A DNA stretch of 64,000 nucleotides, taken from Chloroflexota bacterium (GTDB lineage Bacteria > Chloroflexota > UBA11872 > VXNJ01). A model generated the notes under the pieces. That model saw only the letters and a list, made by a program, of their open reading frames with translations. It was not told the DNA's origin and made no database searches. Every line of letters begins with the position of its first letter. Position 1 is the stretch's first letter. Positions 37,120-64,000 of the stretch are shown here, piece after piece. The position numbers and the translations under genes are program-made. The stretch covers positions 1,389,581 through 1,453,580 of the forward strand of contig OZ242304.1 in assembly GCA_965207915.1 (NCBI GenBank), read 5' to 3'.

Positions 37120-40011
37120 TTGTTCACTAGTACAAAAATGCCTAACGAGTGGTCGGGGCAGGCTAGCCAATCACCATCGATTGATTTCACCGCGATGCTC
37201 GTTCAAAAGCGCGACGGTCGGGTCGTCTCTTTTGACATCAAACGCATTCGTGACGCAATGGCTAAAGCCTTTCGCGCCGATTTGGGAATGGCAATAGACC
37301 AGGAGTTGTCGGACGCGATTTCGGGAGAAGTCGACGCAATAACTCACGCGGTATTGCAAAAGATCTCAGCCAATGCCAGGACAGATGAGGGTGTTGAGAT
37401 TGAAGCGATACAAAATGCCGTCGAAGAGGAATTAATGAGGAGAGGCCACTATTCGGTGGCCAGATCCTATATCTTGTACCGGGCGGAACGGGCAAGATTG
37501 CGCGCGATTCGTCGGATCGTCAAACCGGCGGATCAACTCAAAGATCCGATATTAGTAACCAAATCGGACAAGACTCGTCAGCCTCTGGAAGTCGCTCGCA
37601 TTCGCGCGGAGTTGTTCGAGGTCTTTAGAGGACTCGATGGACATTGTTCCATTGATGACATTGAAGACGCAGTTTTTCTTTCGTTACACGACGGGATTTC
37701 CTCCGGAGACATCCAACGTGCATTGATTTTGGTTGCTCGTCAATGCATGGAAGCTGAGCCCGCGTACGATCGCGTAGCCACGCGTTTACTTTTGAGGCTC
37801 ATTTATCGAGAAGCGTTGGGCGCCGCTCCGACCATTACTGAACTTGACGAACCATATAGGGAAGGATTTGCTCCCTATTTGCGCGCTGGTGTCGAGGCAG
37901 GAAGAATCGATTCCAAGCTGTTGGACTTCGATCTCGAGCGCCTGAAATTGGCGTTGCGCGTTGACCGCGACGACAACTTCAGGATCCTCGGCCTGCAGAC
38001 CCTGTACGACCGGTACCTATTGCACGTCGACGGGCGCCGCATCGAGACTCCGCAATATTTCTGGATGCGGGTGGCGATGGGGTTAGCCCAAAACGAGGAT
38101 GACCGTGAGGCTCGCGCGATCGAGTTCTATGAAACACTCTCACGGTGCCTTTTCGTTTCGGCAACTCCGACGCTCTTTAATTCCGGCACGCCGCATCCCC
38201 AGCTCTCTTCTTGTTACCTCTCCACAGTTAGCGACGACCTGGAGGGCATATTTAAGTGCATCTCCGACAATGCCGCGCTTTCAAAGTGGGCCGGGGGCCT
38301 GGGCAACGACTGGACCCCGATCCGCGCCACCGGATCCCACATCAAAGGCACCAACGGCGAGAGCCAGGGCGTAATCCCGTTCCTCAAGATCGTCAACGAC
38401 ACCGCGGTAGCGGTGAACCAGGGCGGCAAGCGCAAGGGCGCTGTCTGCGCCTATCTGGAGACCTGGCATCTGGACATCGAAAGCTTCGTCGAACTCCGCA
38501 AAAACACCGGCGACGAGCGCCGCCGCACCCACGACATGAACACCGCCAACTGGGTCCCCGACCTGTTCATGCAGCGGGTGGCCCAGAACGGACGCTGGAC
38601 GCTGTTCTCGCCCGACGAGGTCCCGGACCTGCACGATCTTTACGGTAAGGCTTTTGCTGAGCGTTACGAGCACTACGAGCGCCAAGCTAATCGCGGACAA
38701 ATCCGCCGCTACAAGGAAGTCGATGCGCGGGATCTCTGGCGCCAGATGCTCTCGATGCTCTTTGAGACCGGGCATCCCTGGATCACGTTCAAAGACCCGT
38801 CAAACATTCGTTCACCGCAGGACCACGTCGGAGTCGTGCACAGCTCCAACTTGTGCACCGAGATCCTGTTGAATACCTCCTCCACCGAGACCGCAGTCTG
38901 CAACCTGGGTTCGCTAAACCTGCCCGCCCACACGACCCCTGAGGGAATCGACGAGAAACTGCTGGCCAGCACGGTTGCTACCGCAATGCGGATGCTGGAC
39001 AACGTAATCGACATTAACTACTATCCGACCCCGGAAGCCCGGCGCTCCAACACTGCCCACAGACCGGTCGGACTGGGCGTCATGGGCTTCCAGGACGCGC
39101 TATATATCCAGCGCATTCCCTACGCTTCGCAAGAAGCAGTCGAATTCGCCGACCTTTCCATGGAATTGGTTTCATACAACGCGATCCTCTCTTCATCGGA
39201 ACTTGCTTCAGAGCGCGGCCCATACCCTAGCTATCAGGGATCGAAGTGGGACCGCGGCCTGCTCCCGATCGACACCATCGATCTGCTGGAACTGGAGCGC
39301 GGTGAGCCGGTCGAGATGAACCGCGAAAAAACCCTGGACTGGGGCTTGGTGCGTTCGCGGATTAACCGCGACGGTATGCGCAACTCCAACGTCCTGGCCA
39401 TTGCCCCGACCGCGACGATTTCCAACATCGCCGGGGTCTCGCAGTCGATCGAGCCGATCTATCGCAACCTCTACGCCAAATCAAACCTCTCCGGGGACTT
39501 CACGATCCTTAACCCGTATCTGGTTCGTGACTTGCGGCGACTGGACCTATGGGACCAGCGCATGATCGAGGATCTGAAGTACTACGACGGTGTGCTTGCC
39601 GAAATCTCCCGGATCCCTGAGGAGCTGCGGCGTCTCTACCTGGCAGCGACCCAGATTGAACCGGCCTGGCTGATCGAATGCGCGGCCCGTCGCCAGAAGT
39701 GGATCGACATGGGTCAGTCGCTGAACCTCTACATCGCCACACCGTCCGGGAAAGCGGTCGACGAGATGTACTTCCTGGCCTGGCGGCGGGGCCTGAAGAC
39801 CACCTACTACCTGCGCTCGTTCGCCCCTACCCAGATCGAAAAGACGTCGATCGACATCAACGCCCGCGCCATCCAGCCGCGCTGGATGAAATCCGAGTCG
39901 GCCTCGTCCCGGATCGCGGTTAAGCGCGCCGAAGCCCCAGCCGAAGTCCGCTCCACCGTCAACGGGCTGGTGTGCGACCCGTTCGACGAGGAATGCGAGG
40001 CCTGCCAGTAG
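37120..40011 (+). CDS. nrdA: Ribonucleoside-diphosphate reductase large (alpha) subunit with two N-terminal ATP-cone domains
   Basis: 963 aa. ATP-cone ([20 protein letters not shown]) plus a second degenerate cone, the catalytic core PTLFNSGTP...SSCYL, a tyrosine dyad KTTYYLRS near the C-terminus (class-I-like) and C-terminal Cys residues ([12 protein letters not shown]). No nrdB is adjacent, so class II (NrdJ) cannot be fully excluded. Confidence 0.8.
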
Positions 40012-42302: not shown

Positions 42303-43055
42303 CTAGAGGGCGATTAGCTCGCGGGCCAACACCAGGATGCTGGTGATCACGATCACCGTCACCACGAGTTGGCGGAACCGTCGGGCGTTCATGTGGCGGG
42401 TCAGCCGCACCGCCAACAGGTAACCGACCGCCACCATCGGGGCGGCGGCGACCACCAGCAGGAGGCGCTCGCCGGTGAACAGGCCTTCCAGGTAGTAGCC
42501 GGCCAGGGCCACGCCGTAGGCGACGGTCGAAAAGTAGGCCACCGCCGCCCGCAGCTCCTGCCGGCCCATGCCGCTGCCCAGGAAAAAAAGCACGATGATC
42601 GGGCCGCCGATCGAGAGGCCGGAGACCAGGGCGCCGGTCAGGAATCCCAGCAGCGGGCCGGTGATCCGGGGCTTGGGAACCTTCCTCTGTGGGTTGGTGA
42701 TGATCAGGACCGTGACCACCAGGACGAGCAGTGCGATGCCGATCCGCAGGTAGGTCGGATCCAATTCGCTCAGCGCCCACACCCCGATCGGGGTGCCTAG
42801 TACGCCGGCCAGGACCATCGGCGTTAACTCGCGGATTCGCAGCCGGGCGCGGGTTTCAATTAGAACCAGCGCGAATGCCAGCACGGCCACCGAATTGACC
42901 ACGGTGACTACCGTCTGCGGGTCCAAAAAGAGCAGGAGGAAGGGGGTGGTGGACAGGGCGAACCCGAATCCAATCGCTCCAATCGTGAATCCGGCAAGAG
43001 TGAGAACTAATGCGGTGCTTGCAATCTCGACCGGCCCGATCACTTCTACGCCCAC
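42303..43055 (-). CDS. TauE/SafE family sulfite exporter (DUF81)
   Basis: 250 aa, about 8 TM helices, internally duplicated 4-TM halves with a GxxxG-rich pattern typical of TauE. Confidence 0.75.
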   Translation of the reverse strand: MGVEVIGPVEIASTALVLTLAGFTIGAIGFGFALSTTPFLLLFLDPQTVVTVVNSVAVLAFALVLIETRARLRIRELTPMVLAGVLGTPIGVWALSELDPTYLRIGIALLVLVVTVLIITNPQRKVPKPRITGPLLGFLTGALVSGLSIGGPIIVLFFLGSGMGRQELRAAVAYFSTVAYGVALAGYYLEGLFTGERLLLVVAAAPMVAVGYLLAVRLTRHMNARRFRQLVVTVIVITSILVLARELIAL

Positions 43056-43722
43056 CGCGTTCGAAAAGCTGAATCTATCTTTGTGCTTCGAATCTTGAAA
43101 GTGGCGGAAACTGACCGCCCGAAACTAGCCCAATTCTGGTCAGGAATCGCAAAGCAACTTGCGGAATTCGCAGTTCATCGGGCTCACAAGATTTCAGCTT
43201 GACTAGCAAGAGTCACTGCCTCGCCGTATCGGTGGCGTGGATTGAACCATGAAGTCGGTTGAATCTAGGTCAAATTGGGCCAACTGAATAGCCGTGTTTG
43301 ATATTTCGCCGCCAAATCTTGAGATCTGGAGGTAATTCGAGCGGCAGTTATCGTCTCCGAATTTCCGCCCTTCTTTCCGCGGAAATGGCGATCCTGGTAT
43401 TCGCTACACGGTGCAATCTGCGTCAATCTCACGTTTGGAGAATTGCGCGCCGTGCGCTGAATAGATTTGTCGTGCCACTTGGAACTGTCGGCTTCGTGAA
43501 ACCACTGACGCCGTGGAAACCGAAAGTCTTAAGAATTACGCAGGGTGCAGCCGAAGTGGTCGGCCTGACACAAAATGTAGGAATAGAGTCGCAAATTGCG
43601 CGGCCAGGCACCCAACTGATGGTGGGTGCTCTTCACCGGAATTTTTGATCCCGTACAATCGGAGCCCGGCTTTTTTGGAGTATTTGAAACCGGGTGTTCG
43701 GATGCGGAGAGGAGGTGAAAAG

Positions 43723-43854
43723 ATGACCGATCGACGAGCTGGTAAGCGGGTTCCGCACGTGCCAAGCAAGGGCGGCGCGCAACCGCGCGCCCGAAACAAT
43801 GACGGCACGTGGCGCCGGAAACGTTCTGACGCCGGTAAACCAAGGCGCAAATGA
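43723..43854 (+). CDS. Candidate small basic protein (43 aa, pI>12)
   Basis: Strong SD GGAGAGGAGGTG 7 nt upstream of the ATG. MTDRRAGKRVPHVPSKGGAQPRARNNDGTWRRKRSDAGKPRRK. Lies inside the AT-rich island. Only this C-terminal part of track ORF 43513..43854 has translation signals. Confidence 0.3.
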   Translation: MTDRRAGKRVPHVPSKGGAQPRARNNDGTWRRKRSDAGKPRRK

Positions 43855-44310
43855 CGCCTCTCGCAGGAAACTTGGCGGGCCCGAATACTTAAGCGTGCCA
43901 ACCAATTACCCGAATTAATCAGGTACGGTTCGACACCAATTAGGGTGACTCGCCACGTATAGGGTCCACCAAGCCCTGCGGCAACCCATACGCCCAATGG
44001 GAAACATTGGGAAATGGCTGCGATTCAATTATGGTTACCGCTGGACCAAACGGCGGCACGATGTGATCAGCGAATCGAAGCGCTATCGTAAATCGCCACA
44101 AACAAATCTTGATGTGGCCATTGCGAATCGCAATCGGAACCGAAGTCTGCAACCGTTGGAATCGATTTGACGGTATTGCCGGGCCCGCGATTTGAGTCCA
44201 TCCAATCCTGCTGCAAAGCGGCCAGATTGTTGGAAGATGCGGGGAATTACTCATCAATGCGGACATTGGCCCTAACGAATTAAGCAACTACAACTAATTA
44301 GGAGTGATTT

Positions 44311-44664
44311 GTGGAAGTCACTACTGGCGTATCAATCTTGGTCGGCGCTATCTCCGCGCTGATTTCGATATTTGCAATCTGGTTGGCATATTCGGCCAAA
44401 TCGGAAAGTTCGGCGAATTTCGAAAAAGCACAGCGAGTGTTAGCTGAAATTGACAAGAGGGCAGCAGTTACCGAGGAGGTCGTCGCAGAACATCAGCGCG
44501 AACTAATGGACACGGTTCGACAACTGGTGATTCCGGCGAAACCCGACGTGGGCGAGATGCTTGGCGCAAAGTTCCTTGAGTCGATCGTGCAAGACCCTGA
44601 TCGCTTCATGAAAATGATGCCGATGTTGGAGCGATTTTCAGAACGGAAACAACGGGACGAATAA
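44311..44664 (+). CDS. Hypothetical membrane-anchored protein (AT-rich, likely acquired)
   Basis: RBS AGGAGTG 6 nt before the GTG. N-terminal TM helix. Its GC content is far below the genome background. Confidence 0.5.
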   Translation: MEVTTGVSILVGAISALISIFAIWLAYSAKSESSANFEKAQRVLAEIDKRAAVTEEVVAEHQRELMDTVRQLVIPAKPDVGEMLGAKFLESIVQDPDRFMKMMPMLERFSERKQRDE

Positions 44665-44814
44665 CCCCGTTGATTGCGCAGTGTCGTCTAGATACATGCA
44701 TGCCAAATGGCACATGACTTTACGAACTACGAGCATGTTGGGATTTCGCGAATTGATCCGATTTCCATTTGTGGATTGTTCGGCAGCGGATTTCGACGCG
44801 AGGTAATCCCTAGC

Positions 44815-44852
44815 ATCGAATCGCCCGGCAGAATTCTGCCGGGCGATTCGAT
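44815..44852. repeat. Perfect 38-bp palindrome ATCGAATCGCCCGGCAGAATTCTGCCGGGCGATTCGAT
   Basis: Read directly. 17-bp arms around a central GAATTC. Located between the convergent 44311 ORF and the MFS transporter, so it is a likely bidirectional terminator or a protein-binding site. Confidence 0.7.
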
Positions 44853-44903
44853 TGATGCGCTCAAGCGACTCGGATTGCACTGGCTACCCAGTTGCCCCAG
44901 TCC

Positions 44904-46187: not shown

Positions 46188-47275
46188 TAGTCCAGGAAGC
46201 CGGTCTGGGCGTTATGGCGCAGCGCCTGGTCGATGAGGACCAGGGTGCACATGGCCTCTACGATCGGCACCGCCCGCGGCAGGACGCAGGGGTCGTGGCG
46301 GCCGCGTCCGCCGAATTCGACTTCGTTGCCGTCATCGTCGACGGTGCGCTGGGCCTTGAGGATCGTGGCGGTCGGCTTGAACGCCACCCGGCCCACGACG
46401 TCCTCGCCGTTGGAGATTCCGCCCTGGATCCCCCCGGAGCGGTTGGTGCGGGTCCTTACCCGCTGTTCCTGCATGTAGAACTCGTCGTTGTGGGTCACCC
46501 CGGACAGCCGAGTGCCGGCAAAGCCGGTACCGATCTCGAACCCCTTGGCCGCCGGCAGCGAGAGCATCGCCCGGGCCAGCTCGCCGTCGAGTTTTCCGAA
46601 CACCGGCTCGCCCAGTCCGGGCGGGACCCCGCGGCAGACGAATTCGACCACCCCGCCCAGCGAGTCTCCGTCCTTGCGGGCCTTATCGATCCGCTCGTAG
46701 ATAAGGGCGGCCGCGCGCGCGTCGGGGACCCGGGTAGGACTCAAATCGACCGTCTCGCGCGAAATGCCGGCCATGTCCACCGGGGACTCTATATCGGCCA
46801 CCTGCTTGACGTAGGCAACGACCTCTATTCCGTACCTGACCGCCAGCAGCTTGCGGGCCACCGCCCCGGCCGCCACCCGCCCGATCGTCTCGCGCGCCGA
46901 GGCCCGTCCGCCGCCGCGCCAGTTCCGGATCCCGTACTTGGCCTGGTAGGTGTAGTCGGCGTGCGAGGGGCGGTAGATGCGCCGCATGTACTCGTAGTCC
47001 TTGCCGCGCGCGTCCTCGTTGCGCACCACGATTGAGACCGGCGTCCCCAGGGTCACCCCGTCGAACACGCCCGAGAGGATCTCGGCGCGGTCGTCCTCGC
47101 GCCGCTGGGTGGTGATCCGGCTCTGGCCGGGCCGGCGGCGGTCTAGGTCGGGCTGGATGTCGTCGGCCGAGAGCTCAAGGCGCGGCGGGCAGCCGTCGAT
47201 TACCGCCCCGACCGCCTCGCCGTGCGACTCGCCCCAGGTGGTGACCCGGAAAGCCTGACCGAAGCTGTTGCTCAT
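46187..47275 (-). CDS. aroC: Chorismate synthase
   Basis: [12 protein letters not shown]-terminus and conserved AroC signature regions (GGRSSARET-like, RHDPC). Confidence 0.9.
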
Positions 47276-48771
47276 CGCTCGTCGTCTACCTCTTCGCCGA
47301 ACCGGTGGCGGATGAAGTCGCCTATCGTGTACTGGACGTTGCGACGCGCCGCCGCCGCGACCGAGGTTACATACCAGCGGTGAATCCGGGCTAGCATCTC
47401 ATCGCGTCGTTCGGCCTGGGCGGGATCGTCCCAGAGGTTTACGAGCTCGTCGGGGTCGGCCTTCAGGTCGAACAGCATTCCGCGCTCTTCGCCCAAAAAT
47501 TCCACGCACTTGAAATCCCGGGTGCGGAGCATGATCTGGTACTCGATCGCGTTCATCACGGTGTCGCGCGAGAGCTCGGAGAACACCTCGTCGCGGCCGG
47601 CGGCCCCGGCGCGGCCCTCGAGCTGCGGCAGCATGCTTGAGGCCTGGAAGTGCCCGGGAGTCTCAAGGCCGGCGCACTCCAGGACCGTGGGGCCCAGATC
47701 GAACCAGCTGTAGAGGTCGTCGATCGTTCGCCCGCCGGTGAACTTTTCAGGCGCCCAGACGATGGTCGGTACCCGCGTGACGCAGTCGTACATGTTCCAT
47801 TTGGCGTACATGCCGTGATCGCCCAGGGATTCGCCGTGGTCGGAGGTGAAGATCACGATCGAATTGGCCAGCAGTTCGTGACGTTCGAGGGCGTCCAGTA
47901 TCTGGCCGACCTTGGCGTCGATCATCTCGCAGTTGGCCATGTAATAGGCGCGCTGGCGATGGCGCCGCTCGCGCGAGGCCCGCGAATCGTGGACGACCGC
48001 GTCGACGTCATATTGTTCGAAGAACGCGCGCAACTTCTTGAGCCCCTCGGGCTGGGCCGCCATCTCGGCCTCGGTGACTTCGAGCATCGGAATCTCGCGC
48101 TGCATGTATTTTTCGGCCACTTCGGCCAGCGGGTCGAATGGCGGATGCGGTCCGGGGAAGCCGATCTCCAGGAACAGCGGTTGCGGCAGCGGCCGCGAGG
48201 CGGCGCTGGTGTCCAGCCAGCGCACCACCGAGTCGCCGACGAATTCGTCGGGATGCAGGTGATCGGGCAGCGGCCATTCGAACGCCCCCAGGCGTTCGGC
48301 GTAGTCGGGTACCTGCTCGCGGTAGGTGTGGCGACCGGGTTTTTCCAGGTCGTGGGCCAGGATCGCTTTGTCGAGCTCGTCGAAGAATTTGAGCGGGGCG
48401 TGGAAGCGGTCCTTGTTCTCGACCACGTAGCGTTCGTGGAATCCGGCGGGAGCGTCGTACGGGCCGGTGTGCATCTTGCCGATGTTGACGCAGTGGTACC
48501 CGGATGCGGCCAGGTCTTCGACCCAGCACTCGCGCCAGATCGAATCGTTGCGCAGGACCCCGGCATTGTGCGGTGTCATCCCGGAAAAGAGCGCCGCCCG
48601 CGCCGGTCCGCAGACCGGGGCGTTTACGAAGACGTTCGAGAAGACGACGCCTTCGCTGACCAGCCGGTCAAGGTTCGGGGTGTCCATCCAGGGACAGCCC
48701 AGGGCGGCGATCGTGTCGAATCGCTGCTGATCGGTGATGATCAGCACGATGTTGGGGCGATCGTTGGCCAA
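47272..48771 (-). CDS. Sulfatase (arylsulfatase family)
   Basis: [13 protein letters not shown] and the formylglycine motif [11 protein letters not shown]. No signal peptide. Overlaps the aroC stop by 4 nt. Confidence 0.85.
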
Positions 48772-56302: not shown

Positions 56303-56548
56303 TCAGGCCGCCTTGGCGTCGATGAAATCGGCCAGTTGCGCAAGATCAGTGATCGACGTGCAGTCTTCGATTGCAAACGTGATATTGAATTCTTCGGCGA
56401 CCAGTTTGCCAAGCGCCACCAGATCGAGTGAAGAAACGCCGGCGTCGGCAAGACTGAAATTCAGGTCGGCCGGAATGTCCAGCGACTTGCCGTCTACTTC
56501 AACGTTTTCGCTTACCAGCTTGCGCAGGCGTTCGGCGGTGGATGCCAT
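56303..56548 (-). CDS. Acyl/peptidyl carrier protein-like (orphan ACP)
   Basis: 81 aa. Phosphopantetheine-attachment-like motif DAGVSSLDLV in a four-helix-sized protein. RBS GAGGAG 7 nt upstream. Confidence 0.45.
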   Translation of the reverse strand: MASTAERLRKLVSENVEVDGKSLDIPADLNFSLADAGVSSLDLVALGKLVAEEFNITFAIEDCTSITDLAQLADFIDAKAA

Positions 56549-56570
56549 GTACCGTCTCCTCGTATCTTGA

Positions 56571-58120
<1,550 letters not shown>

Positions 58121-58321: not shown

Positions 58322-61300
58322 TCAGGGCGCCGGCGCCACCGCGAACGCGTCTGACCAAGGGCCGGCGCCGGCGCGATTGCGGGCCCGAATCTGAAATTCG
58401 TACGAAAGATCGTCCTCGAGACCGTCAAGAACCAGATTGAGGCCGGCGACGGGATCCAGGCGGCCGATCATCGTCCAGTACCGGTCGGATTTCTCTGGGG
58501 TCCCGGCATAGATGTAGCGCAGGTCGTAGCCAGTGATTCGACTTCCTCCGGTAATGTCCGGCGGAGACCAGTAAATCTCCGTTCGAGCGGGGCTCCGCGC
58601 GACCGCGGCTATTGCGGGCGGCGAAGGCTTGCCCGGGGTGCGCACGATCACCAGCGCGTAGATGCGAACCCTGCTTGAATCGGCCGACTGCACCCGCAGC
58701 AGCAGAATGTTCGGGCCCGAGGCGGTATCGAACTGGAAACCGTTGCCCGGTTCGCCGTCGGCATCGGGCAGCGGGAGCGGCCCGCCTGAGCCGACCGGCG
58801 GCGCCAGGAATTCGAAAACCGCCGCCGGGTCGATCGTTCGGGGCTCGATGGTGATGCGTTCGGACTGGTGATTGACCAGGCGGCGCAGGTAACTCGAACC
58901 GATGGAATAGTTGGAAAACTGCCCGGCGACCCCGATCGCCTCCAGGCCAACCTCGCCCGGTTTGGCGAGTTCGATCGCAAAACTGTAAGTCTGCTCGGAG
59001 GCTGGGTTTGAAACCCGGATGCTCAGTTCGAAGGGTTCCCCGTCCGGCGGCAGCCGCGACAGATTGATCTGAAACCCGTCGGACCGGGGATCGGCGTCCA
59101 CCAGCGGGACAAGATCCGGGCCCAGGTAGCTGACTTCGGAGCTTTCATTGAATAGTTCCGGCGCCAGCGAGAGTTGCGCGGAGACGTCGCCTATTTCCAC
59201 GAATAGCCGGTAGCGGGTGTCGCCCGGCGAAAAAGCGGGCAGCAATCGGCCGAGGTTCAGCGGCAGCGCACGGATTCCGACGTCGCAGAAAGAAAGCCCG
59301 AGCCGGGCGAAATCGTGGTACTGCAATACGTCGACGCGGAGCGTTGCCGGCAGACAGCCCCCCAATCGGTTGCCGGCGAGGCGCAATGTCCCCAGGGCCG
59401 GCAGATTCCCGAACGACTCGGGGACGGGCCCGGTGAACTCGTTGCCGGCCAGCCCCAACCCGATCAGCTCAGCGGCGTTGCCGAAGGAGGTCGGGAGCGG
59501 ACCGGACAGTTCGTTCTCGTCAAGCGAGAGCAGCAGAAGTTTGGGCAATTGGGCCACCTGGTCCGGCAGGGGTCCGGAAAGCCGGTTGCCGCTCAGTTCC
59601 AGGATCACCAGCTCGCTCAACTGGCCGAAGGCGGACGGGATCTCGCCGCTCAGGCGGTTTTTTCTGAGGTCGAGATTCCGCAACCGGACAAGGTCGGCGA
59701 TCGCGGCCGGCAACGGGCCGCTCAACCCGTTGTCGCCCAACTCGAGCTCGACCACGCGACCGGCGTTGTCGGTGTTGACCCCGTGCCAATCGCCGAGTGG
59801 ATCTTCGGACAGCCATCCCTCGCTTCGGGACCATGCGGGGCCGCCGGTGGCTTCATAGAGCCGGATCAGGATGTCACGGTCCGGGGCCAGGCGCTCCAGG
59901 GCCAGCTCGAATCCGCGCCCGTTTTGCCCGTCGGCCGGGGTCACCTCGATCAGGATGCTGTTCGCACCGACCGCCAGGTCGACCTGGTGGCCGTTTTCGG
60001 CGACCTGATCGGCATCGGGCGGGGAGATGTTCACGGTCGCCCCGGGATCAAGCGCCAGCGGTTCGACTCGCACCCGTCCGCGTTCGAAACCGACCCTATG
60101 CGAAAACTCTCCCGCCTCGATGCCGGCGAATATCGGGCGGCCATCGACCAACACCGCGAACAACCCCGCTTCCCCGGCCCGGGCGGGCGAGAACCGCAGA
60201 CTGTAGCGGTATTTCAGGTCCCCCGAGATCACCTCCACCGACATCAGCGGCGGGAGGTCATCGGCGGTCAGTTCGGCAATATCCAGCTGAAAGCCGCCGG
60301 TCTGGCTGTCGGCGTCGGCAAGGATCCGACCGTTTGCGTCAAGAAACGCGACCGCCTGCAATTCCTGGTATGCGAAGAGCCTTAGCGAAACGTGTCGCGA
60401 ACTCTCGGGGGCGGGAACGTCTACGACGTAATCGTGGCGGGCTGAATCGAATTCGGGTCGGATTTGTCCGGGCGAAACACTTATCAGGCTCAGGGCCAGG
60501 TCGCAGAACGGTCTGCCGCCGAATTCCAGCAGGTCGATCGTGGAGCGGAGGCGGCGAATCTCGTTAGGGGCGCAGCCCTCGAAGCCGTTCCCTTCCAGGA
60601 ACAGTTCGCGCAATCGCGACAACTGGGCAATCTCCTCCGGGATCAATCCTTCAAGCCGGTTGTGGGCGAGGTTTAGCCAGCGCATGCGGCCAAGATCGCC
60701 AAGCGCGGCCGGGATGGAGCCGCCAAGCCGGTTGTTGCTCAGGTCTAGATGCTCTAGTTCGGCCAGCGACGCCAGCGACGGCGGGATCTGGCCCTCGAGC
60801 TGGTTGCCGGACAGGTCGAGACTGAGCAGCCCAGGAATGGAACCGATTGACTCGGGCACCGGCCCGGCGAGGAGATTCCGCTCGATCCCGAGCTCGAGCA
60901 GGGATTGCAGGCGACCGATGTCGTCCGGAATTTCGCCGCTGAGCCGGTTGCGGCCGAGACGCAGGTCGGAAAGCGCGTCCAGGTCCGGCAGCCAGCCTGG
61001 CAACTCCCCACTCAGTCGGTTACCGTGCAGATGCAGCGATCTGATCCGCGATGATCTGCCCAGCGAATCCGGGATCGGTCCGATCAACTGGTTGTCGTTG
61101 AGCCGCAGACGGGTGAGCGCCGGTAAGCCGCCGAATCGGTCCGGGATCGTTCCGCTGAAAGCGTTGTTGTCGAGCTCGAGCACCTGTAGTTGAGCGACCG
61201 AGAAAAGATTCGGCGGGATCGGCCCCGAGAGCGCGTTGTCGCTCAGGCGCAGGTACTGCAGTCCGGAGAAGTCTCCGAACCACGGCGGAATCTGGCCGGT

Positions 61301-62713
61301 CAGTTGGTTTCCGCCCAGATCGACCCACCGCAGGTTCGCCAGCGATCGCAATCCGCCCGGGATCGGGGCGGTCAGGTTCGCGTTTGCAAGGTCCAGGTCC
61401 TGGAGGGACTCGAGCTCTCCGAGCCAGCCGGGTATCGCGCCGGTCAGCGGATTTCCTCCCAGCGCCAGCCGGACTACGCGGCTCAATTCGGCCATTTCCT
61501 TCGGCGGCGGCCCGGTAAGCGAATTCGAGCTCAGGTCGAGCACTTCAAGTGATGAAAGCTCCGCCAGCCAGGCGGGTATCGGGCCGGAGAGGGAGTTGCC
61601 GCCCAAATCCAGGTGCGAAAGGGTCGCGAGCGCCGAGAGATCCGGTATTTGGCCGGTCAACTGGTTGCCGCCGGCCCAGAGCTCGGTCAAGTTCTCCAGC
61701 TGGCCGAGCCGCCGCGGCAGCGAGCCCGAAAACCGATTGCCGCCGACCCGCAGGACCCGCAGATCGGCCATGTCGCCGAGTCCCGCAGGAATCGGGCCCC
61801 TGAATACGTTGCTGGAAAGATCAAGGTGCTGCAGACCGTCAAACCTGGCGATCGCGCTCGGCACCGGGCCGGTGATGATGTTGCCCGAAAGATCTAGCCG
61901 CTGCAGGCGCGTGGGCGGTCCGCCGGGGATTCGGAGGCGTCCATTCAGTCGGTTGCCGGAAAGGTCAAGTTCCGCCAGATCTGCGATGCCGAACAATCCG
62001 GCCGGGATTTCACCGGACAGCGAGTTTTCCGCCATCAACAGCCGTTTGAGGTTTTGCAGGGTTCCGAGCGAGGCCGGAATCGGACCATGGAACCCGTTTT
62101 GACTCAAGTCCAGGTGGGTCAGGCGCGAAAAGTTGGCCAATTCCCGGCGGACGCGGTCGATCAGTCGGTTGCCGCTCAAATCGAGTCGCTCAAGCGAGCT
62201 CAGCTCATAAAACTGGTCCGGGATGCCGGCGACCAGCTGGTTGCCGGAGAGGTCAAGGATTTGCAGTCGCGGAGCTGCGCCCAGGGCGGCCGGAATCGAA
62301 CCGCTGAAACGGTTGTCGGCCAGACTTATCGTTCTGATCGCCGGGAGCCGCCCGAGTCCGAGGGGGACCGCGCCGCGGAGCAGGTTGTTGCTTAGGTCTA
62401 GCGCTTCGAGGCCTTGAAGTTGATCGATCGCGGGCGTGATTTGCCCCCGCAGGCGGTTGGAAGCCAGAGCGATTGCGGTGACCCTGCCGGCTTCATCAGT
62501 GGTGAGGCCGTACCACTGATCCAGCGGGGCCGAGCTGTTCCAGTTGTCGGAATTGAGCCATCCCGATCCGCCGGCGGCTTCGAATAATTCGGCAAGAACC
62601 GCCCGGTCCGATGCGGGTGACGATTGCGGCGCCACGATCGCCGCGTCTGCGGTCGGCGCCGCGCCGCTGAAGCCCAGCACCGCCGCCAGGATCAAGGCCA
62701 GGGGACGAATCAC
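58322..62713 (-). CDS. Large secreted leucine-rich-repeat protein (two plant-type LRR blocks with LRRNT-like caps, central beta-rich region, C-terminal fibronectin type III domain)
   Basis: Signal peptide (MIRPLALILAAVLGFSGAAPTADA). Over 40 24-residue LxxLxxLxLxxNxLxGxIPxxLGx repeats. N-caps AELFEAAGGSGWLNSDNWNSS...WYGLTTD..GRVTAI resemble the plant LRRNT_2. The C-terminal FN3 is recognisable from the W...Y...Y pattern (IYWSPP...YDLRY...YEFQIRARN). Confidence 0.8.
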   Translation of the reverse strand: MIRPLALILAAVLGFSGAAPTADAAIVAPQSSPASDRAVLAELFEAAGGSGWLNSDNWNSSAPLDQWYGLTTDEAGRVTAIALASNRLRGQITPAIDQLQGLEALDLSNNLLRGAVPLGLGRLPAIRTISLADNRFSGSIPAALGAAPRLQILDLSGNQLVAGIPDQFYELSSLERLDLSGNRLIDRVRRELANFSRLTHLDLSQNGFHGPIPASLGTLQNLKRLLMAENSLSGEIPAGLFGIADLAELDLSGNRLNGRLRIPGGPPTRLQRLDLSGNIITGPVPSAIARFDGLQHLDLSSNVFRGPIPAGLGDMADLRVLRVGGNRFSGSLPRRLGQLENLTELWAGGNQLTGQIPDLSALATLSHLDLGGNSLSGPIPAWLAELSSLEVLDLSSNSLTGPPPKEMAELSRVVRLALGGNPLTGAIPGWLGELESLQDLDLANANLTAPIPGGLRSLANLRWVDLGGNQLTGQIPPWFGDFSGLQYLRLSDNALSGPIPPNLFSVAQLQVLELDNNAFSGTIPDRFGGLPALTRLRLNDNQLIGPIPDSLGRSSRIRSLHLHGNRLSGELPGWLPDLDALSDLRLGRNRLSGEIPDDIGRLQSLLELGIERNLLAGPVPESIGSIPGLLSLDLSGNQLEGQIPPSLASLAELEHLDLSNNRLGGSIPAALGDLGRMRWLNLAHNRLEGLIPEEIAQLSRLRELFLEGNGFEGCAPNEIRRLRSTIDLLEFGGRPFCDLALSLISVSPGQIRPEFDSARHDYVVDVPAPESSRHVSLRLFAYQELQAVAFLDANGRILADADSQTGGFQLDIAELTADDLPPLMSVEVISGDLKYRYSLRFSPARAGEAGLFAVLVDGRPIFAGIEAGEFSHRVGFERGRVRVEPLALDPGATVNISPPDADQVAENGHQVDLAVGANSILIEVTPADGQNGRGFELALERLAPDRDILIRLYEATGGPAWSRSEGWLSEDPLGDWHGVNTDNAGRVVELELGDNGLSGPLPAAIADLVRLRNLDLRKNRLSGEIPSAFGQLSELVILELSGNRLSGPLPDQVAQLPKLLLLSLDENELSGPLPTSFGNAAELIGLGLAGNEFTGPVPESFGNLPALGTLRLAGNRLGGCLPATLRVDVLQYHDFARLGLSFCDVGIRALPLNLGRLLPAFSPGDTRYRLFVEIGDVSAQLSLAPELFNESSEVSYLGPDLVPLVDADPRSDGFQINLSRLPPDGEPFELSIRVSNPASEQTYSFAIELAKPGEVGLEAIGVAGQFSNYSIGSSYLRRLVNHQSERITIEPRTIDPAAVFEFLAPPVGSGGPLPLPDADGEPGNGFQFDTASGPNILLLRVQSADSSRVRIYALVIVRTPGKPSPPAIAAVARSPARTEIYWSPPDITGGSRITGYDLRYIYAGTPEKSDRYWTMIGRLDPVAGLNLVLDGLEDDLSYEFQIRARNRAGAGPWSDAFAVAPAP

Positions 62714-63020
62714 GCGTTAAGCCGGGCCCCAAGATTGCCCGGTAGTGGAACCAATTGCCAGCATTGGGTCCGAATTCTGTGTCTGCAAATCAGGGTGCCG
62801 CCGCCAGTGAAAGTCCCTTCAGGGCACCCATTCTTGCAAGGTGCGAGGGAGCGGAAATGGCGGCGTCTCGCGTTTGAGTTCTATATCGGCCCGATCGGCG
62901 AACCGCCCGGCTGCAAGAATCGCGCGGCGTCAATCCCCAACCCATAGCTCTGGAAGTTCAGCGCCCGTGAATGCATCGCCAAGCTCCGCGGCTTCCTCCG
63001 CCCGGGAAACTCCGGGCTCC

Positions 63021-64000
63021 ATGCCCAACATCGTGTTTCTGATGAGTGACGACCACGGATGGCATGAAACCGGCTACAACGGGCATCCGATCGTGCAGAC
63101 GCCGGTCCTGGACGAAATGGCCTCCGAAGGGCTCTGTCTCGACAGCTTCTATTCCGGGGCGCCGCTCTGTTCGCCAACCCGGGCGAGCGTGATTACCGGC
63201 CGTCATCCGAATCGGTGCGGAACGTTCAACCCGGGCTGGTCGATTCGGCCGGAGGAAATTACCATCGCGCAGATCCTGTCGCGGGCGGGTTACGCTTGCG
63301 GCCACTTCGGCAAGTGGCATCTCGGTCCGGTGAAGGCCGATTCGCCGACCAATCCGCGGGCAATGGGGTTTGAGGAATACCTCTCGCACGACAACTTTTT
63401 CGACATGGACCCATACCTTTCGCACAATGGCGGTCCGCCGGAGAAGTACGAAGGTGAAAGCTCCCAGATCGTCGTCGATGCGGCCAACCGTTTCATCTCG
63501 GATGCGCGGGCAGCCGGGCGCCCGTTTTTCGTGGTGGCCTGGTTCGGATCCCCGCACGAGCCCTACAGCGCACTTGATGAGGACCTTGCCACCTACGGCG
63601 ATCTGCCGGAAGAATTGCAGCAGAACACAGCGCAGATCACCTCGCTTGAGACCGGAGAGCAGGTGCATATCCGACTGGACAGGGTGCTACAGGCGCGTTA
63701 TGCAGAGATCACCGCGATGGACAGGGCGATTGGCGATCTGCGCCAGCACCTGTCCCGGGAGCAGATAAGGGATGAGACTTTGCTCTGGTACTGCGGCGAC
63801 AACGGCGCACCGCGGGAGAGCCGGTTCGCCTCGCCAATGCGCGGTTACAAAGGGCTCGTTTACGAGGGCGGAATAAGAGTGCCTGCGGTTATCGAGTGGC
63901 CAGCCCGGTTTAAGGAACCTAATCGCTTGTCGATGGACTCGGTCACCAGCGACATCCTGCCGACATTGTGCGAGCTGACGGGACAGCCATTGCCCGATCG
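63021..64000 (+). CDS. Sulfatase (arylsulfatase family), 3' truncated by window end
   Basis: MPNIVFLMSDDHGW and the formylglycine motif CSPTRASVITG. No signal peptide. It is absent from the ORF track only because no stop codon falls inside the window. Confidence 0.8.
   Translation, partial: MPNIVFLMSDDHGWHETGYNGHPIVQTPVLDEMASEGLCLDSFYSGAPLCSPTRASVITGRHPNRCGTFNPGWSIRPEEITIAQILSRAGYACGHFGKWHLGPVKADSPTNPRAMGFEEYLSHDNFFDMDPYLSHNGGPPEKYEGESSQIVVDAANRFISDARAAGRPFFVVAWFGSPHEPYSALDEDLATYGDLPEELQQNTAQITSLETGEQVHIRLDRVLQARYAEITAMDRAIGDLRQHLSREQIRDETLLWYCGDNGAPRESRFASPMRGYKGLVYEGGIRVPAVIEWPARFKEPNRLSMDSVTSDILPTLCELTGQPLPD

What the first reader, a model, noticed from the sequence alone, without database searches (positions are those of the whole stretch)
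58322..62713. 1463-aa secreted protein with plant-specific-type LRRs, LRRNT_2-like caps and a C-terminal FN3
Two LRR blocks begin with caps that closely resemble the plant receptor-kinase N-terminal cap (consensus ...W.....PC.W.GV.C....RV..L.L). They are followed by dozens of 24-residue LxxLxxLxLxxNxLSGxIPxxLGxL repeats, which is the plant-specific LRR class and rare in bacteria. A central non-LRR beta-rich region and a terminal fibronectin III domain follow. Its position next to an IS element suggests acquisition or mobility. Possible roles are adhesion, host-receptor mimicry, or a large surface protein.
Basis: partly seen in the sequence, partly recalled or inferred. Interest (0 to 1): 0.65.

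Follow-up and report, generated by a model that had tools for sequence, protein, structure and literature searches.

The report
Secreted plant-type LRR protein, sponge-symbiont Chloroflexota
This is a real 1463-residue secreted protein built from plant-style leucine-rich repeats, but it belongs to a very large bacterial family and is a native gene of a sponge-associated Chloroflexota lineage, so it is an ordinary "eukaryotic-like" symbiont protein and not a rare or mobile acquisition.

Summary
The ORF at 58322..62713 (minus strand) encodes 1463 aa: a Sec-type signal peptide, then twice [N-cap, 24-residue LRRs (27, then 6), Cys-pair C-cap, two cadherin-like β-sandwiches], then FN3. The repeats match the plant-specific consensus LxxLxLxxNxL(S/T)GxIPxxLGxLxx, and the best PDB matches are plant receptor-kinase ectodomains.

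- **Caps:** they lack the cysteines and fail Pfam LRRNT_2. They link to it transitively through Cys-bearing bacterial caps, and a high-confidence model superposes on plant SERK/BAK1 ectodomains, cap included (TM 0.88).
- **Rarity:** this type is not rare in bacteria. The cap profile alone finds over 20,000 protein clusters.
- **Mobility:** the IS110 element is a separate 1.5-kb insertion, absent from a 99%-identical MAG. A more divergent relative has the same gene order without it. Codon usage is unremarkable and dN/dS is 0.23.

The nearest genome belongs to Chloroflexota class UBA11872, reported only from corals and sponges. The likeliest role is an extracellular binding or adhesion protein of the sponge-symbiont "eukaryotic-like protein" kind. 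The ligand is unknown. I file it as a new member of a known kind, of modest interest.

The parts
58322..62713 (-). Complete gene for the 1463-aa LRR protein (GTG start at 62713, TGA stop at 58322-58324)
   Evidence: ORF list. Coordinates checked by translation. dN/dS is 0.23 against the syntenic ortholog, so it is a constrained, functional gene.
62642..62713 (-). Predicted Sec signal peptide, aa 1-24 (MIR / PLALILAAVLGF / SGAAPTADA|A)
   Evidence: It is the only hydrophobic segment in the protein. An N-terminus of the same type is conserved in the L003 ortholog. The cleavage site was read by eye; no predictor was run.
62483..62617 (-). N-cap 1, aa 33-77: Cys-less bacterial version of the LRRNT_2-type cap (helix, Trp-rich loop, beta-hairpin)
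   Evidence: Cap HMM domain E 3e-17. AF2 pLDDT 96.6. Superposes on plant SERK/BAK1 N-termini. No Pfam LRRNT_2 hit.
60542..62482 (-). LRR block 1, aa 78-724: 27 plant-specific-type repeats (26 x 24 aa, 1 x 23 aa)
   Evidence: Repeat register. Consensus by column. Pfam LRR families. Plant LRR-RLK ectodomains are the best PDB hits.
60494..60589 (-). C-cap 1, aa 709-740 (GNGFEGCAPN...GRPFCDL; Cys714 and Cys737); its first residues overlap the last LRR
   Evidence: These are two of the only four cysteines in the protein. The motif recurs in many homologs and is invariant in the ortholog/paralog alignment.
60188..60499 (-). Cadherin-like beta-sandwich domain 1, aa 739-842
   Evidence: Iterated HMM seeded here finds four copies in the protein, and finds the single domain that follows the C-cap in P0061, P0064, P0073 and P0092. 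Pfam PF12733 reports 2 stretches in this region.
59879..60181 (-). Cadherin-like beta-sandwich domain 2, aa 845-945
   Evidence: Pfam PF12733 Cadherin-like, 31.5 bits against a cut-off of 24.2, E 2.4e-7. jackhmmer.
59756..59890 (-). N-cap 2, aa 942-986
   Evidence: Cap HMM domain E 6e-20. Aligns with cap 1 by BLASTP.
59324..59755 (-). LRR block 2, aa 987-1130: 6 plant-specific-type 24-aa repeats
   Evidence: AF2 pLDDT 77-94.
59276..59371 (-). C-cap 2, aa 1115-1146 (GNRLGGCLPA...GLSFCDV; Cys1120 and Cys1143)
58979..59272 (-). Cadherin-like beta-sandwich domain 3, aa 1148-1245
   Evidence: Iterated HMM E 4e-30. Homologous to module 1 by BLASTP.
58634..58960 (-). Cadherin-like beta-sandwich domain 4, aa 1252-1360
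   Evidence: jackhmmer E 7e-40 and E 3e-16.
58346..58609 (-). Fibronectin type III domain, aa 1369-1456; the protein ends 7 residues later with no anchor motif
   Evidence: Pfam PF00041, 32.8-36 bits against a cut-off of 25. AF2 pLDDT 70-84.
56561..58056 (+). NOT part of the gene: an IS110-family insertion element (transposase 56634..57848). It lies 265 nt downstream of the LRR stop codon and 12 nt upstream of the acyl-carrier-protein gene (56303..56548, minus strand), and is flanked by CT on both sides.
   Evidence: Pfam DEDD_Tnp_IS110 plus Transposase_20. Precise insertion relative to the empty site in L001. Absent in L003.

Best explanation
The gene is a native chromosomal gene of a sponge-associated Chloroflexota bacterium (GTDB class UBA11872, family VXNJ01). 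It encodes a non-enzymatic, Sec-exported binding protein.

Shown:
- The architecture is SP, then [N-cap, 27 LRR, C-cap, 2 cadherin-like domains], then [N-cap, 6 LRR, C-cap, 2 cadherin-like domains], then FN3.
- The repeats are PS-type.
- The gene sits in conserved synteny and is under purifying selection.
- It belongs to a very large bacterial family of modular cap-LRR proteins.

Inferred:
- After export, the two capped LRR solenoids act as the ligand-binding units. The C-caps are probably disulfide-stabilised. By analogy with plant PS-LRR ectodomains of similar length, the long one could bind an extended peptide or protein along its concave face.
- The cadherin-like and FN3 beta-sandwiches act as spacers and/or glycan- or matrix-binding modules that hold the protein at the cell surface or in the sponge matrix.
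- The biological role is then that proposed for sponge-symbiont 'eukaryotic-like proteins': attachment to, or recognition by, host cells or matrix, or other cells.

The neighbouring IS110 element is an unrelated recent insertion.
For: Architecture.

PS-type repeats and plant-like fold.

Extracytoplasmic location: signal-peptide-like N-terminus, no other hydrophobic segment, and exactly four Cys in two conserved C-cap pairs.

No catalytic or defence domain.

Native gene:
- 99% nt identity and colinearity with MAG GCA_009836645.1, apart from the IS.
- Same order (sulfatase, LRR, ACP, a/b-hydrolase, DUF2461, dehydrogenase) in L003, whose ortholog is 73.5% identical.
- Codon-usage distance of 0.102 is below the window median of 0.113.

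Functional constraint:
- dN/dS is 0.23 overall and 0.08 at scaffold positions.
- It is 0.21 at concave variable positions against 0.36 at convex ones. Amino-acid differences are 54/198 against 97/263, Fisher p=0.035. So the binding face is conserved, not diversifying.

Provenance:
- GCA_009836645.1 is classed as UBA11872/VXNJ01 (PMC10608941 supplement).
- UBA11872 MAGs are listed from the sponge Coscinoderma matthewsi and in IRC-labelled bins.

Literature: LRR, cadherin and FN3 proteins are enriched in sponge MAGs, including Chloroflexota, and are proposed to act in attachment and host interaction (PMC8163846; PMC6306507; PMC3909097).

Homologs: the same cap-LRR modules are fused to other secreted-protein domains, including peptidase families (Pfam lists). 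This fits a generic extracellular binding module.
Against: - No ligand, expression data or localisation data exist for this protein.
- No cell-wall or membrane anchor was found, so 'surface-attached' and 'released' cannot be told apart.
- The sponge origin of the window itself is inferred from a near-identical MAG's lineage, not read from sample metadata.
- The concave-face conservation signal is modest (p=0.035) and vanishes in the three-way comparison with the 50%-identical homolog (32% against 29%, p=0.48).
- The cadherin-like domains could not be modelled confidently (pLDDT 22-50), so their assignment rests on sequence profiles only.
- The signal peptide was judged by eye.
Confidence: 0.6

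Rival explanations
1. Soluble host-modulating effector. The protein is released and binds a sponge receptor or signalling ligand, acting as a decoy or mimic. This could, for example, stop archaeocytes from phagocytosing the symbiont, as shown for ankyrin-repeat proteins of sponge symbionts.
For: There is no anchor motif at the C-terminus. The literature describes ELPs that modulate phagocytosis and notes that LRR proteins are enriched in sponge MAGs. The long solenoid resembles peptide-binding plant receptor ectodomains.
Against: The phagocytosis evidence in the papers read is for ankyrin proteins, not LRR proteins. Four cadherin-like domains plus FN3 look more like a stalk or adhesion scaffold than a compact effector. 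PS-type LRRs are a native bacterial family here, with no evidence that they copy a sponge protein. Few sponge symbiont lineages encode dedicated secretion systems (PMC8163846).
Confidence: 0.18
2. A host-independent extracellular role. The protein could mediate cell-cell cohesion or biofilm, or capture proteinaceous or glycan substrates for the neighbouring degradative enzymes (sulfatases, GH116). In that case the same kind of protein would serve free-living bacteria equally well.
For: The family is very large and found in many phyla, not obviously only in symbionts: Rhodothermales, Caldilineaceae, Dehalococcoidia and Gemmatimonadetes appear among the hits. Homologs fuse the module to peptidase domains. 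The gene is divergently adjacent to a sulfatase in both the window and L003.
Against: This particular ortholog group was found only in the UBA11872-type MAGs and two metagenome contigs. There is no catalytic partner in the same transcription unit; the downstream genes are an ACP, a hydrolase and DUF2461. The biomes of most homologs are unknown, so host independence is not shown either.
Confidence: 0.17
3. Recently acquired foreign or mobile gene, taken from a plant or alga or carried by the adjacent IS.
For: The plant-type repeats have 30-36% identity to plant RLKs over long stretches. GC3 of 0.775 is the third lowest of 43 genes in the window. An IS110 element lies next to the gene, and the 50%-identical homolog P0002 sits beside an IS1595 transposase.
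Against: The IS is a single element inserted downstream, and it is absent from a 99%-identical genome and from L003. Synteny is conserved between genomes whose flanking proteins differ by 8-18%. Codon-usage distance is below the median, and the low-GC3 set includes the core RNR gene and the conserved neighbours. The nearest relatives are thousands of bacterial proteins with a bacterial-type Cys-less cap, not plant proteins. The two IS elements belong to different families and sit at different positions.
Confidence: 0.04
4. Not a real gene: a spurious or decaying ORF in a high-GC genome.
For: High-GC DNA produces many long spurious ORFs. The GenBank MAG annotates only an 893-aa product.
Against: The 893-aa call is caused by a run of N in the scaffold. 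The ORF shows GC3 > GC1 > GC2, a dN/dS of 0.23 with 0.08 at scaffold positions, Pfam E-values around 1e-90 and full-length orthologs.
Confidence: 0.01

Closest known systems
Plant LRR receptor-kinase and receptor-like-protein ectodomains (GSO1, FLS2, PEPR1; co-receptors SERK/BAK1, BIR)
   Same: The repeats have the same 24-residue PS-LRR consensus. These are the best sequence matches in the PDB. The predicted cap plus first four repeats superposes at TM 0.81-0.88. The number of repeats in block 1 (27) is in the range of long peptide-binding receptors.
   Different: There is no transmembrane helix or kinase. The N-cap has no cysteines and fails Pfam LRRNT_2. The C-cap is the bacterial GC.P...C type. 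The solenoids are followed by cadherin-like and FN3 domains. The organism is a bacterium with no plant connection.
Sponge-symbiont 'eukaryotic-like proteins' (ELPs/ELRs): LRR, ankyrin and TPR repeat proteins, plus cadherin- and FN3-domain proteins
   Same: It combines three of the domain classes reported as enriched in sponge-associated MAGs, including Chloroflexota (PMC8163846; PMC6306507). It has a signal peptide, as many such proteins do (PMC3909097). The nearest genome belongs to a lineage reported only from corals and sponges.
   Different: ELP is an operational category, not a homologous family. Experimental support (phagocytosis evasion) exists for ankyrin proteins only in the papers read. 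This exact architecture has not, to my knowledge, been described individually.
Modular bacterial cap-LRR proteins (the family recovered here; nearest curated entries are Pfam PF18805 LRR_10 and Bacteroides structures 4ECO/4ECN)
   Same: The Cys-less N-cap is the same (xxLxxLYxATxGxxWxxxxNWLxxxPLxxWxGVxTDxxGRV) and is followed by PS-type repeats. 108 of the 120 best hits carry it. The cap profile hits 4eco_A and 4ecn_A, and 9 of 65 caps touch PF18805. A subset (P0061, P0064, P0073, P0092) shares the order LRR, GC..C cap, cadherin-like, FN3.
   Different: Most relatives have many short cap-LRR cassettes (4-12 caps with 3-8 repeats each). This protein has one very long 27-repeat solenoid plus a short one, doubled cadherin-like domains, and no enzyme or Big/PPC domains.
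Xanthomonas type III effectors with LRRs (XopL, XopAE, XopAC/AvrAC)
   Same: These are bacterial proteins whose NCBIfam models align with the LRR region (XopAE 254 bits, XopAC 246 bits, XopL 114 bits).
   Different: All scores are far below the family cut-offs (600, 450, 500). This protein has a Sec signal peptide and not a T3SS signal. It has no E3-ligase or Fic domain. It is not a member.
Internalins (Listeria) and Leptospira LRR/fibronectin-binding surface proteins
   Same: The general logic is shared: a secreted or surface LRR solenoid followed by beta-sandwich spacer domains, used for host binding. There are weak NCBIfam hits (LIC_11051 195 bits, InlA 83 bits) and PDB hits to LIC11098 and LIC10831.
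   Different: The LRR class differs (internalins use shorter repeats; from my own knowledge). Scores are far below the cut-offs (1000, 1600). No LPXTG, GW or lipobox anchor was seen.

Membership tests
Plant-specific (PS) LRR class | Repeat length 23-25 residues | tested here: met
   32 repeats of 24 aa and one of 23 aa. Definition taken from PMC2946307.
Plant-specific (PS) LRR class | Consensus LxxLxLxxNxL(t/s)GxIPxxLGxLxx | tested here: met
   Column counts over 33 repeats: L1 27, L4 30, L6 29, N9 32, L/F11 32, S/T12 19, G13 30, I/L/V15 31, P16 30, G20 16, L22 20.
Plant-specific (PS) LRR class | Closest structural and sequence relatives are plant LRR ectodomains, with a short helix on the convex side of each repeat | tested here: met
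   phmmer against PDB: GSO1 5.6e-194, FLS2 4e-121. The top 50 Foldseek hits are all plant LRR proteins. DSSP of the model shows strand, strand, short helix per repeat. This rests on a predicted structure, not a solved one.
Pfam LRRNT_2 (PF08263) N-terminal cap | Score at or above the Pfam gathering threshold (20.7 bits) | tested here: not met
   There is no hit for the whole protein at E<=1, none for either isolated cap at E<=10, and 0 of 65 caps of this type hit it.
Pfam LRRNT_2 (PF08263) N-terminal cap | Conserved Cys pair (C.W.GV.C) | tested here: not met
   The caps read LDQWYGLTTD and LGDWHGVNTD. The only Cys residues in the protein are 714, 737, 1120 and 1143.
Pfam LRRNT_2 (PF08263) N-terminal cap | Homology to bona fide LRRNT_2 caps | tested here: inconclusive
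   The link is transitive only. The cap profile A1 matches Cys-bearing bacterial caps A2 at hhalign probability 99.4%, E 6e-21, and 18 of 18 A2 caps hit PF08263, best E 1.1e-7. Direct comparison with four plant caps gives probability 8%, and the cap profile finds no plant protein in the PDB at E<=10.
Pfam LRRNT_2 (PF08263) N-terminal cap | Fold: N-terminal helix plus beta-hairpin capping the first repeat | tested here: met
   The AF2 model (pLDDT 96.6) has a helix at aa 33-46, then a hairpin. 141-146 of 145 columns align with SERK/BAK1/BIR ectodomains at TM 0.81-0.88. This rests on a predicted structure.
Sponge-symbiont eukaryotic-like proteins (ELPs) | Carries eukaryote-type repeat or adhesion domains (LRR/ANK/TPR, cadherin, FN3) | tested here: met
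   LRR, cadherin-like and fn3 Pfam hits.
Sponge-symbiont eukaryotic-like proteins (ELPs) | Encoded by a sponge-associated symbiont | tested here: inconclusive
   The window is 99% identical to GCA_009836645.1, which is classed in UBA11872/VXNJ01. That class is reported only from corals and sponges and is present among sponge MAGs. The sample of origin of the window itself was not available.
Sponge-symbiont eukaryotic-like proteins (ELPs) | Mediates host interaction (e.g. evasion of phagocytosis, attachment) | not testable with these tools
   This needs expression, binding or uptake experiments.
Pfam Cadherin-like beta sandwich (PF12733) | Score at or above the gathering threshold (24.2 bits) | tested here: met
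   30.0-31.5 bits for aa 865-941. The other three copies are supported only by iterated searches and the internal BLASTP. The AF2 model of these domains is unreliable.
Pfam fn3 (PF00041) | Score at or above the gathering threshold (25 bits) | tested here: met
   32.8 bits in the whole protein and 36.0 bits in the isolated C-terminal segment.
Xanthomonas LRR type III effectors (XopL, XopAE, XopAC) | NCBIfam score at or above the curated cut-off | tested here: not met
   254 against 600, 246 against 450 and 114 against 500 bits.
IS-borne or composite-transposon cargo gene | Gene bounded by IS copies, or moving together with the IS | tested here: not met
   There is a single IS copy in the window. 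It is a precise 1496-bp insertion downstream of the gene, absent in L001 and L003, while the gene and its neighbours stay in place.
Anti-phage defence proteins with LRRs | Match to a PADLOC model | tested here: not met
   No PADLOC family at E<=0.001.

The most novel reading that the evidence does not exclude
The bacterial cap-LRR family to which this protein belongs forms a continuum from Cys-less caps, through Cys-bearing caps that pass LRRNT_2, to plant caps. It may therefore share direct ancestry with the ectodomains of plant LRR receptor kinases, through ancient transfer in one direction or the other. This 27-repeat member may work, like FLS2- or PEPR-type receptors, as a specific binder of an extended host or microbial peptide. 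That would make it a concrete molecular handle on how a sponge and a Chloroflexota symbiont recognise each other.
Probability: 0.12. Interest if true: 0.6.

Novelty: new member of a known kind. Interest (0 to 1): 0.25.

Why it matters
As it stands, this is a well-resolved example of a known category, the eukaryotic-like repeat proteins of sponge symbionts, within a very large and poorly curated bacterial protein family.

Three things are useful:
- The window supplies the complete gene, which is broken by a scaffold gap in the public MAG.
- The analysis shows that the very common bacterial Cys-less cap is the structural equivalent of the plant LRRNT_2 cap, and that current Pfam models miss it.
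- The protein is a clean candidate for binding experiments on symbiont-sponge recognition: one long solenoid, no enzyme domains, conserved synteny.

It does not overturn anything.

Tried and rejected
- **Exact-sequence look-up:** not on record.
- **Pfam LRRNT_2** on the whole protein, on isolated caps and on 65 caps: no hit.
- **Cap-only profile against PDB:** no plant hits. The top 'Pizza' designer-propeller hits are spurious matches to the GV..D..G.V tail. Only 4ECO and 4ECN are meaningful.
- **Direct hhalign of bacterial caps against four plant caps:** weak, probability 8%. The plant alignment was very shallow.
- **AF2 of aa 653-1463 with a 6-sequence alignment:** the cadherin-like regions came out at pLDDT 22-50, so no fold search was run on them.
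- **Searching papers for the accessions** (GCA_009836645, VXVA01, SRP109090, 3300035549): nothing in main texts or in the Robbins et al. supplements. Taxonomy was finally found in the PMC10608941 supplement.
- **Rfam on the IS region** (looking for an IS110-associated RNA): only a sub-threshold sX15 match.
- **Promoter and terminator scan around the gene:** no more sites than in shuffles.
- **PADLOC:** none.
- **Diversifying selection on the concave face:** rejected, because concave positions are more conserved than convex ones in the close pair and no different in the three-way comparison.
- **'Foreign codon usage':** rejected.
- **IS as carrier of the gene:** rejected.

Full report
**1. The observation**

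The window has an ORF at 58322..62713 on the minus strand that encodes exactly 1463 aa. Its base composition by codon position (GC1 0.69, GC2 0.48, GC3 0.77) is that of a real gene in this 65-70% GC genome.

Stacking the sequence on the LxxLxLxxN anchor gives 27 consecutive repeats at aa 78-724 and 6 at aa 987-1130. All are 24 residues except one of 23. The column consensus is LxxLxLxxNxL[ST]GxIPxxLGxLxx, with N9 in 32/33, G13 in 30/33 and P16 in 30/33. This is the published consensus of the plant-specific (PS) LRR class (PMC2946307).

Pfam LRR models score at E 1e-90 or better, fn3 matches aa 1369-1456, and Cadherin-like (PF12733) matches aa 873-941. A phmmer search of all PDB sequences ranks plant LRR receptor-kinase ectodomains first: GSO1 5.6e-194, FLS2 4e-121, then PEPR1, HAESA, ERL1, MIK2 and BRI1.

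The N-terminus, MIRPLALILAAVLGFSGAAPTADA|A, is the only hydrophobic segment. The protein ends in the FN3 domain without any anchor motif. The signal peptide was judged by eye because no predictor was available.

**2. Anatomy**

BLASTP of the C-terminal third against the rest shows an internal duplication of a whole module. Each module consists of:
- an N-cap (aa 33-77; 942-986);
- the LRRs;
- a C-cap of the form GN.(L/F).GC.P...(~20 aa)...FC (aa 709-740; 1115-1146);
- a region of about 210-230 aa that iterated HMM searches resolve into two cadherin-like beta-sandwich domains (739-842 and 845-945; 1148-1245 and 1252-1360).

The four cysteines of the protein are exactly the two C-cap pairs, and they are invariant in relatives. 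This fits disulfide-stabilised caps in an exported protein, which is an inference.

No enzymatic domain, NCBIfam family above cut-off, or PADLOC model matches.

**3. The caps**

Neither cap hits Pfam LRRNT_2, even when scanned alone at E<=10, and neither contains the defining cysteines. The cap is instead the standard cap of a very large bacterial family:
- 108 of the 120 best homologs carry it, with 480 instances.
- Searched against 1.84 billion representative proteins, this 41-position profile finds 20,469 clusters at E<=0.001 and 8,408 at E<=1e-10.
- Against the PDB it finds no plant protein. It does find two Bacteroides LRR proteins (4ECO, 4ECN).
- Against Pfam, 0 of 65 caps hit LRRNT_2, and 9 of 65 touch PF18805 LRR_10.

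- A few bacterial homologs (P0074, P0077, P0080) have caps that keep the bacterial helix (ALxALYNATxGxNW) but also carry C.W.GV.C. All 18 of these hit LRRNT_2, best E 1.1e-7.
- Those caps align with the Cys-less profile at hhalign probability 99.4%.
- An AlphaFold2 model of aa 30-174, built with a 31-sequence alignment, has pLDDT 96.6 and pTM 0.90. It shows a helix, a Trp-rich loop, a beta-hairpin and four repeats.
- Foldseek against the PDB returns only plant LRR ectodomains in the top 50. The short SERK2, BAK1 and BIR2 ectodomains align over 141-146 of the 145 query columns, which includes the cap, at TM 0.81-0.88 and rmsd 1.8-2.6 A.

The caps are therefore a Cys-less bacterial form of the LRRNT_2-type cap. 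They are not members by the Pfam test, but they look equivalent in predicted structure.

**4. Origin and context**

The window is ordinary chromosome. It carries gyrA, a ribonucleotide reductase, chorismate synthase, a ClpB-like ATPase, sulfatases, a GH116 glycosidase and one tRNA-Lys.

The closest protein, P0001, is 99% identical but only 893 aa. It comes from Chloroflexi MAG GCA_009836645.1. Aligning that contig (L001) with the window gives 99% nucleotide identity and colinearity, with two exceptions:
- L001 has a run of N inside the gene. This explains the truncated annotation.
- The window has a 1496-bp insertion at 56561..58056.

The insertion encodes an IS110-family transposase and is flanked by CT on both sides. 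It lies 265 nt past the LRR stop codon and 12 nt before the ATG of an 81-aa acyl carrier protein. It is the only copy in the window.

A second MAG contig (L003, 'uncultured Chloroflexota bacterium') carries a 1500-aa ortholog in the same gene order: sulfatase, LRR, ACP, a/b-hydrolase, DUF2461, dehydrogenase. It has no IS.

A 50%-identical full-length homolog (P0002) lies in a different neighbourhood, next to an IS1595 transposase. That is a different IS family in a different position.

The gene's GC3 (0.775) is low for the window, whose median is 0.849. That is shared with its conserved neighbours and with the RNR gene, and its synonymous-codon distance from the rest (0.102) is below the median of 0.113. 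The gene is therefore native and ancestral to this clade, and the IS is incidental.

**5. Selection**

Against the L003 ortholog, the protein is 73.5% identical with dN/dS 0.23. The adjacent hydrolase is 91.8% identical with dN/dS 0.10. So the LRR protein evolves faster than its neighbours but under clear purifying selection.

Within the repeats:

| Position class | dN/dS |
|---|---|
| Scaffold positions | 0.08 |
| Concave-face variable positions | 0.21 |
| Convex/loop variable positions | 0.36 |

. Amino-acid differences are 54/198 at concave positions against 97/263 at convex ones, p=0.035. With the distant homolog added, the difference disappears (32% against 29% identical in all three, p=0.48). 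There is thus no sign of the diversifying selection typical of immune-receptor LRRs. If anything, the putative binding face is conserved.

**6. Organism and biology**

The supplement of PMC10608941 classifies GCA_009836645.1 as Chloroflexota; class UBA11872; family VXNJ01; species VXNJ01 sp009840625, with a 2.16-Mb assembly. The same paper states that UBA11872 MAGs were detected only in the 'corals and sponges' category. The supplements of Robbins et al. list UBA11872 MAGs from the sponge Coscinoderma matthewsi and in IRC-labelled bins.

Those authors, and Bayer et al. and Kamke et al., report that LRR, cadherin and FN3 proteins are enriched in sponge symbionts, frequently carry signal peptides, and are proposed to mediate attachment or host interaction. 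Experimental evidence (evasion of phagocytosis) exists for ankyrin proteins.

The protein fits this category. Its likeliest mechanism is this: it is exported by Sec, its two capped solenoids bind a ligand, and the beta-sandwich domains act as spacers or matrix and glycan binders. Shown: architecture, family, nativeness and constraint. Inferred: location, binding mode and host relevance.

**7. Comparison and verdict**

It works like a plant LRR ectodomain joined to an adhesin-like stalk. It is not a member of LRRNT_2 (Pfam), of the Xop effector families, or of the internalins, because all scores fall far below the cut-offs. It is a member of the PS-LRR class and of a very large, largely uncurated bacterial cap-LRR family. 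Within that family, a subset shares the order LRR, GC..C cap, cadherin-like, FN3.

The claims of rarity and mobility are not supported. I file it as a new member of a known kind, with modest interest of 0.25. The main residual value is as a clean candidate for binding experiments and as an illustration that Pfam misses the bacterial cap.

Noticed in passing
window 56561-58056 (+): An IS110-family element (transposase 56634..57848) is inserted precisely between the LRR gene and the ACP gene. CT flanks both junctions (empty site ...TCTC-CT-TGATTCC...). The IS left end (CGTATCTTGATTACGG) resembles the target's right flank (TGATTCCGG). It is absent from the 99%-identical MAG. No Rfam family for an associated RNA was found.
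   Followed up: partly
window 56303-56548 (-): An 81-aa acyl carrier protein gene (PP-binding). The IS sits 12 nt upstream of its ATG but leaves the AGGAG ribosome-binding site intact. The 204-aa ORF listed at 56303..56917 is an artefact that runs into the IS. The IS probably cuts this gene off from upstream transcription.
   Followed up: partly
L001 1393-1402 (GCA_009836645.1, VXVA01000034.1): A run of 10 N replaces about 111 nt inside the LRR gene of the public MAG. As a result, GenBank annotates only an 893-aa fragment (F4Z40_02185). The window supplies the intact gene.
   Followed up: yes
window 62811-63998 (+), 47272-48771 (-), 80-2680 (+): There are two sulfatases, one of them divergently adjacent to the LRR gene and conserved there in L003, and a GH116-family glycosidase. 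This fits the glycan- and sulfated-polysaccharide-degrading repertoire described for sponge symbionts. No functional link to the LRR gene was tested.
   Followed up: no
window 43055-44900: A stretch of about 1.8 kb with lower GC (about 0.60) has no ORF with the genome's usual codon-position GC pattern. The only candidate is a 117-aa ORF at 44311..44664 with a hydrophobic N-terminus. No Rfam or tRNA hit.
   Followed up: no
window 37120-40011 (+): The ribonucleotide reductase large subunit, with two ATP-cone stretches, has the lowest GC (0.577) and GC3 (0.71) in the window, although it is a core gene. This shows that low GC3 is not a mark of foreign DNA here.
   Followed up: partly
proteins P0074, P0077, P0080: These are metagenomic bacterial-type LRR proteins whose caps combine the bacterial helix motif (ALxALYNATxGxNW) with the plant-like C.W.GV.C pair and pass Pfam LRRNT_2. 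They are apparent intermediates between the bacterial and plant cap types.
   Followed up: partly
proteins P0061, P0064, P0073, P0092: A second, different Cys-containing N-terminal cap precedes some LRR blocks in these relatives: C..G.AV.D...NPGLVSDCE.LL..RD.LAG...LNWS....I..WDGV. It does not occur in the window protein.
   Followed up: no
L002 5498-7882 (JGI 3300035549 contig): The 50%-identical full-length homolog P0002 is preceded by an IS1595-family transposase and an HNH/N6_N4-methylase gene. That makes two of the four loci examined with an IS nearby, but of different families and at different positions.
   Followed up: no
window 58322-62713 against L003 4005-8507: The LRR protein is 73.5% identical between the two MAG lineages, while the flanking proteins are 82-92% identical. 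It evolves about four times faster in dN than the adjacent hydrolase (0.166 against 0.043).
   Followed up: yes
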